A stretch of 64,000 nucleotides of DNA, from assembly GCF_045037415.1 (NCBI RefSeq), contig NZ_CP173438.1; one strand, given 5' to 3'. The stretch comes from Escherichia coli (GTDB lineage Bacteria; Pseudomonadota; Gammaproteobacteria; Enterobacterales; Enterobacteriaceae). Position 1 is the stretch's first letter. Every line of letters starts with the position of its first letter. Position numbers and translations under genes: made by a program. This document shows, piece by piece, positions 26,360-26,714 of this stretch. The notes under the pieces are model-generated. The model searched no databases, was not told the DNA's origin, and was given only the letters and a program-made list of their open reading frames with translations.

Positions 26360-26714
26360 TCCCATCTGCACAAGCGATAACTCGCTTTGCCCAGAGGATG
26401 CACTCGCATCCTCTTTCCGCTCAAATATCAACCAGATTTATCATTTTGCTCTTAAGCGCAGCATTCTAATCTGAACTGGTTATTCATCTGCGGAACCTCA
26501 TATGAGCGAAGCTCTCGGTATCACTGCATTTTATATATTCATAGCAGCAATTATTGTTGCTGCAGTGCTATACCTTGAACAACGCTGGTAGCGCCTGGTT
26601 TTATTTATTTTCCAGCTCAATAGCAAATTCAGATCAAATCAGCCTCGCAAATTATAGATTCATAACCAATAATGTGCTGTTATGTATACATGCAAAAACA
26701 AGGAGAGAATGCTT

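What the first reader, a model, noticed from the sequence alone, without database searches (positions are those of the whole stretch)
26360..26714. Short rnk-uspG spacer where K-12 is remembered to carry ybdR
Only 355 bp separate the rnk stop and the uspG start. In the K-12 map as I recall it, a ~1.2 kb zinc-dependent dehydrogenase gene (ybdR) sits between these two genes on the opposite strand. No dehydrogenase-like ORF or fragment is visible in any frame here, which suggests a clean absence or deletion in this strain.
Basis: partly seen in the sequence, partly recalled or inferred. Interest (0 to 1): 0.4.

Follow-up and report, generated by a model that had tools for sequence, protein, structure and literature searches.

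The report
Common ybdR-less rnk–uspG allele
The short gap between rnk and uspG is the ordinary version of this locus carried by about a third of E. coli and by other Escherichia species: it lacks the dehydrogenase gene ybdR that K-12 has there, it holds the tiny membrane-protein gene yldA, and it is not a deletion peculiar to this strain.

Summary
K-12 carries ybdR between these genes on the opposite strand. No YbdR-like sequence exists in the spacer or anywhere in the 64-kb window.

- The spacer is not empty. It holds the rnk terminator hairpin, yldA (26502-26591, 29 aa) and a conserved uspG upstream region.
- The arrangement is not strain-specific. 1816 of 5426 complete E. coli genomes have it. 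3605 have ybdR instead, and ybdR-like DNA is found in no other genome.
- It is not a clean excision from a K-12-like locus. 277 bp here (26421-26697) cannot be aligned with the 1611 bp that K-12 has in their place, although the flanks are 98-100% identical. The two YldA alleles share 58% identity.
- The short spacer is collinear with E. albertii and two other divergent Escherichia lineages, at flank-like divergence.

Across 80 Enterobacteriaceae species all four combinations of yldA and ybdR presence occur at this site.

Verdict: an ancient, common allele of a dimorphic locus that is already annotated in RefSeq. Interest is low.

The parts
25795..25903 (+). rnk leader (Rfam RF01771), upstream of rnk; context only
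   Evidence: cmscan 124.9 bits against a gathering score of 50, E = 2e-24
25949..26359 (+). rnk CDS (136 aa), left flank; 99.6-100% identical to K-12
   Evidence: ORF list; RefSeq annotation of identical DNA in SK1144; sliding identity to K-12
26393..26414 (+). rnk terminator-like hairpin (9-bp stem, 4-nt loop, followed by UUU); the last element shared by both alleles
   Evidence: Fold energy -15.5 kcal/mol, z = -4.9 against shuffles. The stem is conserved and the loop varies in L005-L007. Identity with K-12 ends at about 26420.
26421..26697 (.). Allele-specific block of the short (S) haplotype; it replaces 1611 bp (yldA-L, ybdR and the ybdR-uspG spacer) of K-12
   Evidence: No blastn match to K-12 even with word size 7. 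Present in 1816/5426 E. coli genomes. Collinear with E. albertii and Escherichia spp. at 83-98% and with Citrobacter sp. R56 and relatives at 67-73%.
26502..26591 (+). yldA, small membrane protein, 29 aa (MSEALGITAFYIFIAAIIVAAVLYLEQRW)
   Evidence: NCBIfam NF041476, 59 bits against a cut-off of 45. Annotated in SK1144. Always 29 codons with a conserved AVLYLE..W end in 34 species. 6 nt differences and 0 aa differences versus E. albertii. The K-12 allele was detected as a protein (PMC6001520).
26655..26714 (+). S-type uspG upstream region, including the Shine-Dalgarno AAGGAGAG at 26700-26707; presumed uspG promoter and 5' UTR
   Evidence: Nearly invariant among E. coli short alleles, Escherichia spp. 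and E. albertii, and recognisable in Citrobacter R56. It differs from the L-type upstream region shared by K-12, C. sedlakii and Salmonella. The consensus scan found no sigma-70 match, so the promoter is inferred.
26715..27143 (+). uspG CDS (142 aa), right flank; mosaic, 92.3% nt identity to K-12 against about 98-99% for neighbouring genes

Best explanation
The window carries the short (S) allele of a dimorphic E. coli locus. Shown: the order is the rnk terminator hairpin, about 90 bp of spacer, yldA (29-aa single-helix membrane protein), about 60 bp of AT-rich spacer, a conserved S-type uspG upstream region with a strong ribosome-binding site, and then uspG. ybdR is absent, and the arrangement is orthologous and collinear with that of E. 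albertii and other Escherichia lineages. It is therefore inherited from an ancestor at least as old as the E. coli / E. albertii split, and is not a deletion in this strain. Shown: the alternative long (L) allele of K-12, O157:H7 and O104:H4 has a divergent yldA, a convergent ybdR and a different uspG upstream region. It is related to the alleles of Salmonella and Citrobacter sedlakii. It differs from the S allele as a block bounded by the rnk terminator on the left and the first few dozen bases of uspG on the right. Inferred: within E. coli the two alleles were exchanged as a cassette by homologous recombination in the conserved flanks. By parsimony the S allele is the ancestral state in Escherichia, and the L allele entered or was sorted into the lineage leading to phylogroups A, B1 and E. 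Inferred consequences here: the uncharacterised YbdR zinc dehydrogenase is missing, yldA has no convergent ybdR transcription, and uspG is driven from an S-type upstream region.
For: Spacer and gene coordinates. K-12 map. Population split: 1816 genomes carry the short allele and 3605 carry ybdR at megablast and at blastn sensitivity. Non-alignable 277 bp against 1611 bp, with 99.6% and 92% identical flanks. YldA alleles are 58% identical and both exceed the NF041476 cut-off. Collinearity with Escherichia sp. MOD1-EC7003, SCPM-O-B-8794 and E. albertii is 82-98% per spacer segment, similar to rna, rnk, uspG and ahpF (84-98%). Named strains: short in LF82, ABU 83972, SMS-3-5, IAI39 and 042; long in K-12, O104:H4 and O157:H7. 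The phylogroup assignments of these strains come from my own knowledge. S-type and L-type uspG upstream regions shared across genera. No ybdR scar here, in contrast with a scar in Enterobacter L058.
Against: The direction of change is not proven. K-12 ybdR is 79.4-79.7% identical in nucleotides to the Salmonella and C. sedlakii copies, about the same as rnk (82%) and uspG (77-79%). The L allele could therefore have descended vertically alongside the S allele as a long-lived polymorphism rather than being imported. No donor closer than Salmonella was found. E. fergusonii, S. bongori and S. enterica subsp. enterica were not in the sample. An old deletion whose scar has eroded cannot be excluded for the origin of the S allele before the Escherichia radiation. 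The yldA and uspG promoters in the spacer were not detected by the consensus scan.
Confidence: 0.85

Rival explanations
1. A recent, clean deletion of ybdR in this strain or its clone from a K-12-like ancestor.
For: ybdR is absent and no fragment remains. Independent ybdR deletions do occur: strain HH97 keeps a 192-bp pseudogene fragment in a K-12-like background, and Enterobacter L058 keeps the last ~18 codons.
Against: The 277 bp between the rnk terminator and the uspG ribosome-binding site do not align with the K-12 sequence flanking ybdR. A deletion would leave flanks about 98% identical. The same spacer is in 1816 complete genomes and is collinear in E. albertii and two other Escherichia lineages.
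Confidence: 0.02
2. Long-lived polymorphism: the S and L alleles both existed in the ancestor of Escherichia (and perhaps of Escherichia, Salmonella and Citrobacter) and were sorted into lineages. E. coli B2, D and F, E. albertii and some Citrobacter kept S; E. coli A, B1 and E, Salmonella and C. sedlakii kept L. No import into E. coli is needed.
For: K-12 ybdR, its upstream spacer and its yldA region are as far from the Salmonella, C. sedlakii and C. koseri counterparts (70-80% nt) as ordinary orthologues are. The S spacer is likewise 67-73% identical to Citrobacter R56-type spacers. Both allele types cross genus boundaries.
Against: It requires two alleles to be maintained through several speciation events. 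All three non-coli Escherichia genomes sampled carry S. The sharp block boundaries with near-identical flanks inside E. coli are what a recombinational replacement produces.
Confidence: 0.25
3. ybdR has been relocated elsewhere in this genome, or the short spacer is an assembly artefact.
For: Only 64 kb of the genome is visible, so relocation cannot be excluded for this strain directly. ybdR-family genes of 397 aa exist at other loci in genera that lack ybdR at rnk-uspG.
Against: blastn at about 65-70% sensitivity finds ybdR-like DNA in exactly 3605 genomes. Together with the 1816 short-allele genomes this accounts for 5421 of 5426. Strain SK1144, 100% identical over 25900-27200, has the same annotated arrangement in a finished chromosome.
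Confidence: 0.01

Closest known systems
rnk-yldA-uspG arrangement as annotated in RefSeq E. coli genomes such as SK1144, LF82, ABU 83972, SMS-3-5, IAI39 and 042
   Same: Identical gene order and spacing. 100% identical DNA in SK1144 over 25900-27200. The same YldA protein (WP_001287361.1) is annotated in SK1144, SMS-3-5, IAI39 and 042.
   Different: Nothing of substance; the window is a member of this allele class.
K-12 MG1655 rnk-yldA-ybdR-uspG locus (L allele)
   Same: Same flanking genes. rnk and its terminator are 99.6% identical. A 29-codon yldA lies at the same relative position downstream of rnk.
   Different: K-12 has ybdR (1239 bp, opposite strand, stop codon 3 bp from the yldA stop). 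Its YldA is only 58% identical, its uspG upstream region is unrelated, and its uspG is 92.3% identical. K-12 ybdR and yldA are listed as a convergent overlapping-transcript pair (PMC12288877). That arrangement cannot exist here.
YldA small membrane protein family (NCBIfam NF041476; Pfam PF23689)
   Same: 29 aa, hydrophobic core and conserved C-terminal AVLYLE motif. The score exceeds the curated cut-off.
   Different: It is the S-type allele rather than the K-12 allele for which protein synthesis was shown (PMC6001520). Its function is unknown in either case.

Membership tests
YldA small membrane protein (NCBIfam NF041476, equivalog) | Whole-protein score above the curated cut-off (45 bits) | tested here: met
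   59 bits, E = 3e-16, profile positions 1-29 of 29
YldA small membrane protein (NCBIfam NF041476, equivalog) | 29-residue ORF immediately downstream of rnk on the same strand, with a conserved C-terminal AVLYLE..W | tested here: met
   ORF 26502-26591. 36 sequences (34 sampled loci plus K-12 and the window) all have exactly 29 codons and the motif. 6 synonymous and 0 non-synonymous differences versus E. albertii.
YldA small membrane protein (NCBIfam NF041476, equivalog) | The protein is actually made | not testable with these tools
   The K-12 allele appears in that paper's table of small proteins (PMC6001520); I did not read how it was detected. Nothing is available for the S allele.
YbdR zinc-dependent alcohol dehydrogenase present at or near the locus | Any ORF or fragment similar to K-12 YbdR (Pfam PF08240 + PF00107) | tested here: not met
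   tblastn best E = 0.62 in the 64-kb window and E >= 1 in the spacer. No ybdR-like DNA in the 1821 E. coli genomes outside the 3605.
Simple deletion derivative of the K-12-type locus | Sequence on both sides of a single junction about as similar to K-12 as the rest of the region (about 98%) | tested here: not met
   277 bp are unalignable with K-12, while the flanks are 99.6% (rnk side) and 92% (uspG)
Short (S) rnk-uspG allele of Escherichia | Full-length collinear match of 25900-27200 and of the 277-bp allele-specific block in other genomes | tested here: met
   1816 E. coli genomes cover at least 80% of both queries. Escherichia sp., SCPM-O-B-8794 and E. albertii are collinear over 3.9 kb.
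Intrinsic (Rho-independent) terminator after rnk | Stable GC-rich hairpin followed by a U-tract | tested here: inconclusive
   The hairpin is stable (-15.5 kcal/mol, z = -4.9) and its stem is conserved. Only three U follow it, and the consensus scan did not call it.

The most novel reading that the evidence does not exclude
The rnk-uspG spacer is a combinatorial indel site across Enterobacteriaceae. All four combinations of yldA and ybdR presence occur among 80 species. E. coli harbours two deeply divergent allele lineages (S and L) whose relatives cross genus boundaries. The K-12-type L allele (yldA-L, ybdR and a different uspG upstream region) was introgressed as a cassette into the ancestor of phylogroups A, B1 and E, rewiring uspG and yldA expression as well as adding a dehydrogenase.
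Probability: 0.5. Interest if true: 0.3.

Novelty: already known. Interest (0 to 1): 0.1.

Why it matters
It matters little beyond bookkeeping. ybdR is an accessory gene of E. coli rather than a core gene, so K-12 is not a universal template for this locus. The 355-bp spacer should be annotated with yldA rather than treated as empty. The sharp replacement of yldA and of the uspG upstream region together with ybdR suggests that the stress gene uspG and the small protein YldA may be expressed differently in the two halves of the species. That idea is testable but minor.

Tried and rejected
- **Strain-specific clean deletion:** rejected. The 277 bp do not align with K-12 and the allele is widespread and cross-species.
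- **ybdR remnant in the spacer or a copy elsewhere in the window:** none found.
- **Divergent ybdR copy in short-allele E. coli genomes:** blastn 'distant' mode found the same 3605 genomes as megablast.
- **Structured RNA in the spacer:** the only Rfam hit is a sub-threshold snoRNA match (27 bits against a gathering score of 45), which I take as chance. Folds of 26420-26505, 26555-26615 and 26592-26720 are no better than shuffles.
- **Repeats or mobile-element ends flanking the block:** no direct repeats and only trivial inverted repeats.
- **Sigma-70 promoter or terminator consensus in the spacer:** none called.
- **Donor of the K-12 L allele:** the nearest non-coli YbdR is Salmonella's at 91-92% aa and 79.5% nt. 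A 94%-identical 395-aa variant (P0007) turned out to be an E. coli allele shorter by 51 bp, in a locus 98.4% identical to K-12.
- **Strain HH97's 78% match to the S block:** it lies in a K-12-like locus with an independent internal ybdR deletion, so it is not an intermediate.
- **UMN026 (NC_011751.1):** not in the collection.

Full report
**1. The observation**

- The rnk ORF runs 25949-26359 on the + strand. The uspG CDS, as annotated in identical RefSeq DNA, runs 26715-27143. The spacer 26360-26714 is therefore 355 bp.
- The gene order in the window is citG, citT, rna, rnk, spacer, uspG, then ahpF and ahpC on the opposite strand. This is the K-12 13-minute region read in reverse.
- In K-12 MG1655, placed in the same orientation, the order is rnk, yldA (+, 90 bp), ybdR (-, 1239 bp, 'zinc-dependent alcohol dehydrogenase') and uspG.
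- tblastn of K-12 YbdR finds nothing in the 64-kb window (best E = 0.62) and nothing in the spacer.

**2. What is in the spacer**

The spacer is not empty. It contains four features.
- **rnk hairpin.** A stable hairpin lies at 26393-26414 (-15.5 kcal/mol, z = -4.9). Its stem is conserved and its loop varies among Escherichia species. I read it as the rnk terminator, although only three U follow it and the consensus scan did not call it.
- **yldA (26502-26591).** It encodes MSEALGITAFYIFIAAIIVAAVLYLEQRW.
  - It scores 59 bits against NCBIfam NF041476 'small membrane protein YldA', whose cut-off is 45.
  - It is annotated in the identical DNA of strain SK1144.
  - The gene caller's Pfam label for this ORF in a related locus is PF23689 YldA.
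  - In 36 sequences (34 sampled loci plus K-12 and the window) the ORF is always 29 codons, with an invariant or near-invariant AVLYLE..W end.
  - Against E. albertii it has six nucleotide differences and no amino-acid differences, which indicates purifying selection.
  - The K-12 allele is listed as a small protein located between ybdR and rnk (PMC6001520).
- **uspG upstream region.** About 60 nt before uspG (26655-26714) include AAGGAGAG at 26700-26707. They are almost invariant across Escherichia and recognisable in Citrobacter sp. R56. I infer that they hold the uspG promoter and 5' UTR.
- **No other elements.** No Rfam family reaches threshold in the spacer. There are no flanking repeats.

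**3. How common it is**

| Search of 5426 complete E. coli genomes | Genomes with a match |
|---|---|
| Window 25900-27200, full length | 1816 |
| 277-bp allele-specific block 26421-26697 | 1818 (1816 at ≥80% coverage) |
| ybdR, megablast | 3605 |
| ybdR, blastn (about 65-70% sensitivity) | 3605 |

- In one search, the remaining matching genomes split the window query at position 521 (window 26420).
- 1816 plus 3605 is 5421 of 5426. The locus is therefore a clean dimorphism, and short-allele genomes have no ybdR anywhere.
- Named strains with the short allele are LF82, ABU 83972, SMS-3-5, IAI39 and 042.
- Named strains with ybdR include K-12, a B-strain derivative, O104:H4 and O157:H7.
- From my own knowledge of these strains, the short allele falls in phylogroups B2, F and D, and the long allele in A, B1 and E.

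**4. It is not a deletion of the K-12 form**

- Window and K-12 are 99.6% identical through rnk and its hairpin, up to about 26420.
- The next 277 bp of the window (26421-26697) have no blastn match, even with 7-base words, to the 1611 bp that K-12 has in their place.
- Homology resumes at the uspG ribosome-binding site. uspG itself is only 92.3% identical and visibly mosaic, whereas neighbouring genes are about 98-99% identical.
- The two YldA proteins are 58% identical.
- A recent excision would have left K-12-like sequence on both sides of one junction. Such scars exist elsewhere:
  - Strain HH97 retains a 192-bp ybdR pseudogene fragment in a K-12-like locus.
  - An Enterobacter lineage (L058) retains the last ~18 codons of ybdR after yldA.
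  - Nothing of the kind is present in the window.

**5. Outgroups**

- A scan of one genome per species with Rnk returned 80 loci.
- The window aligns collinearly over 3.9 kb with three Escherichia lineages: Escherichia sp. MOD1-EC7003 (94.8%), the divergent 'E. coli' SCPM-O-B-8794 (92.5%) and E. albertii (88.3%).
- Per segment, spacer identity is 87-98% in the first two and 82-93% in E. albertii. The flanking genes rna, rnk, uspG and ahpF give 88-98% and 84-94% respectively.
- The short allele was therefore inherited vertically since at least the E. coli / E. albertii split.
- Family-wide, four states occur at this site:

| State | Species | Spacer length | Examples |
|---|---|---|---|
| Neither gene | 34 | 146-205 bp | Kluyvera, Kosakonia, C. 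freundii group |
| yldA only | 21 | 351-513 bp | Escherichia, some Citrobacter, Enterobacter, Lelliottia, Phytobacter |
| ybdR only | 10 | 1512-1629 bp | Salmonella arizonae and diarizonae, E. cloacae, Leclercia, Silvania |
| Both genes | 12 | 1649-1789 bp | K-12-like; C. sedlakii, several Enterobacter |

**6. Two allele lineages**

- The 60 nt upstream of uspG and the first codons of uspG fall into two types.
  - The S type is found in E. coli short alleles, other Escherichia and Citrobacter R56.
  - The L type is found in K-12, C. sedlakii and Salmonella.
- The S block aligns over its whole length with Citrobacter R56-type spacers at 67-73%.
- The K-12 rnk-yldA stretch aligns best with C. 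koseri (70.5%).
- The K-12 ybdR-uspG spacer aligns best with C. sedlakii (76.5%) and Salmonella (75%).
- K-12 ybdR is 79.4-79.7% identical in nucleotides to the Salmonella and C. sedlakii copies. That is about the same as rnk (82%) and uspG (77-79%).
- No lineage with a markedly closer ybdR was found. A 94% variant is simply an E. coli allele with a 51-bp deletion.

**7. Interpretation**

- Shown: the window has the S allele. It is common, old and orthologous across Escherichia. It differs from the L allele as a block bounded by the rnk terminator and the start of uspG.
- Inferred: the two alleles replace each other by homologous recombination in the conserved flanks.
- Inferred by parsimony: S is ancestral in Escherichia, and L entered or was sorted into the lineage leading to A, B1 and E. 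The basis is three of three non-coli Escherichia genomes plus phylogroups B2, D and F.
- I cannot separate import from long-lived polymorphism, because the L allele is as far from Salmonella's as ordinary orthologues are.
- Functional consequences are inferred only:
  - The uncharacterised YbdR dehydrogenase is absent.
  - The ybdR-yldA convergent transcript overlap listed for K-12 (PMC12288877) cannot exist here.
  - uspG is read from a different upstream region.

**8. Verdict**

The feature is an ordinary allele already annotated in RefSeq, with low interest and no novelty beyond a tidy description of the dimorphism.

Noticed in passing
window 8934-9495 (junction at about 9455-9459), + strand: ybeF (LysR-type 'YbeF family transcriptional regulator') lacks about 392 bp that K-12 has near its 3' end, leaving a 177-aa ORF (8936..9469). 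SK1144 shares this. In the 12 rows shown, the two genomes with 100% identity match in one piece, and 9 of the other 10 match this stretch in two pieces spanning about 1598 bp instead of 1201; 649 genomes fall in the >=99% identity band. This looks like a lineage-restricted internal deletion.
   Followed up: partly
window 25795-25903, + strand: The rnk leader (Rfam RF01771) is present upstream of rnk, at 124.9 bits against a gathering score of 50. A terminator-like hairpin lies at 25866-25894 inside it.
   Followed up: no
window 28830-28999 (ahpF-ahpC spacer): The spacer length is variable among E. coli: 170 bp here, 244 bp in K-12 and 042, and 128 bp in IAI39 and SMS-3-5. Alignment with K-12 breaks at about 28973-28977.
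   Followed up: no
window about 43708 (fepB-entC spacer) and 36337-36414 (cstA-ybdD spacer); 58064-58101: K-12 has about 184 bp extra in the fepB-entC spacer and about 70 bp extra in the cstA-ybdD spacer. A 38-bp piece of the K-12 cstA-ybdD spacer, lying in the stretch that does not align with the window at that site, occurs in the window only at 58064-58101, which suggests a small dispersed repeat.
   Followed up: no
loci L005-L084 (rnk-uspG spacer in 80 Enterobacteriaceae species): All four combinations of yldA and ybdR presence or absence occur at the same site: 34 species with neither, 21 with yldA only, 10 with ybdR only and 12 with both. yldA and ybdR therefore behave as independent modules.
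   Followed up: partly
L058:1051-1110 versus L028:5640-5700: A ybdR-negative species labelled Enterobacter asburiae retains the last ~18 codons of ybdR (AAEQNVKGLVNAFPGGVA*) directly after yldA. This is a true deletion scar, unlike the Escherichia short allele.
   Followed up: yes
L003 (E. coli HH97, NZ_CP116409.1) 3462-3806: In a K-12-like background, ybdR is reduced to a 192-bp pseudogene fragment and yldA is annotated as a longer 141-bp ORF. This is an independent, recent internal deletion at the same locus.
   Followed up: partly
window 26715-27143 (uspG): uspG is unusually mosaic within Escherichia. There are 85 variable sites in 429 bp among 8 sequences, with patchy sharing of variants between lineages. 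For example IAI39 and SCPM-O-B-8794 share the 3' end pattern, which suggests frequent recombination in this gene.
   Followed up: partly
proteins P0080-P0117: Genera that lack ybdR at rnk-uspG (Klebsiella, Kluyvera, Kosakonia, Yokenella, C. amalonaticus) have a 397-aa YbdR homologue of 79-81% identity, presumably at another locus. YldA also scores weakly against the YoaI small-protein model NF041475 (30 bits).
   Followed up: no
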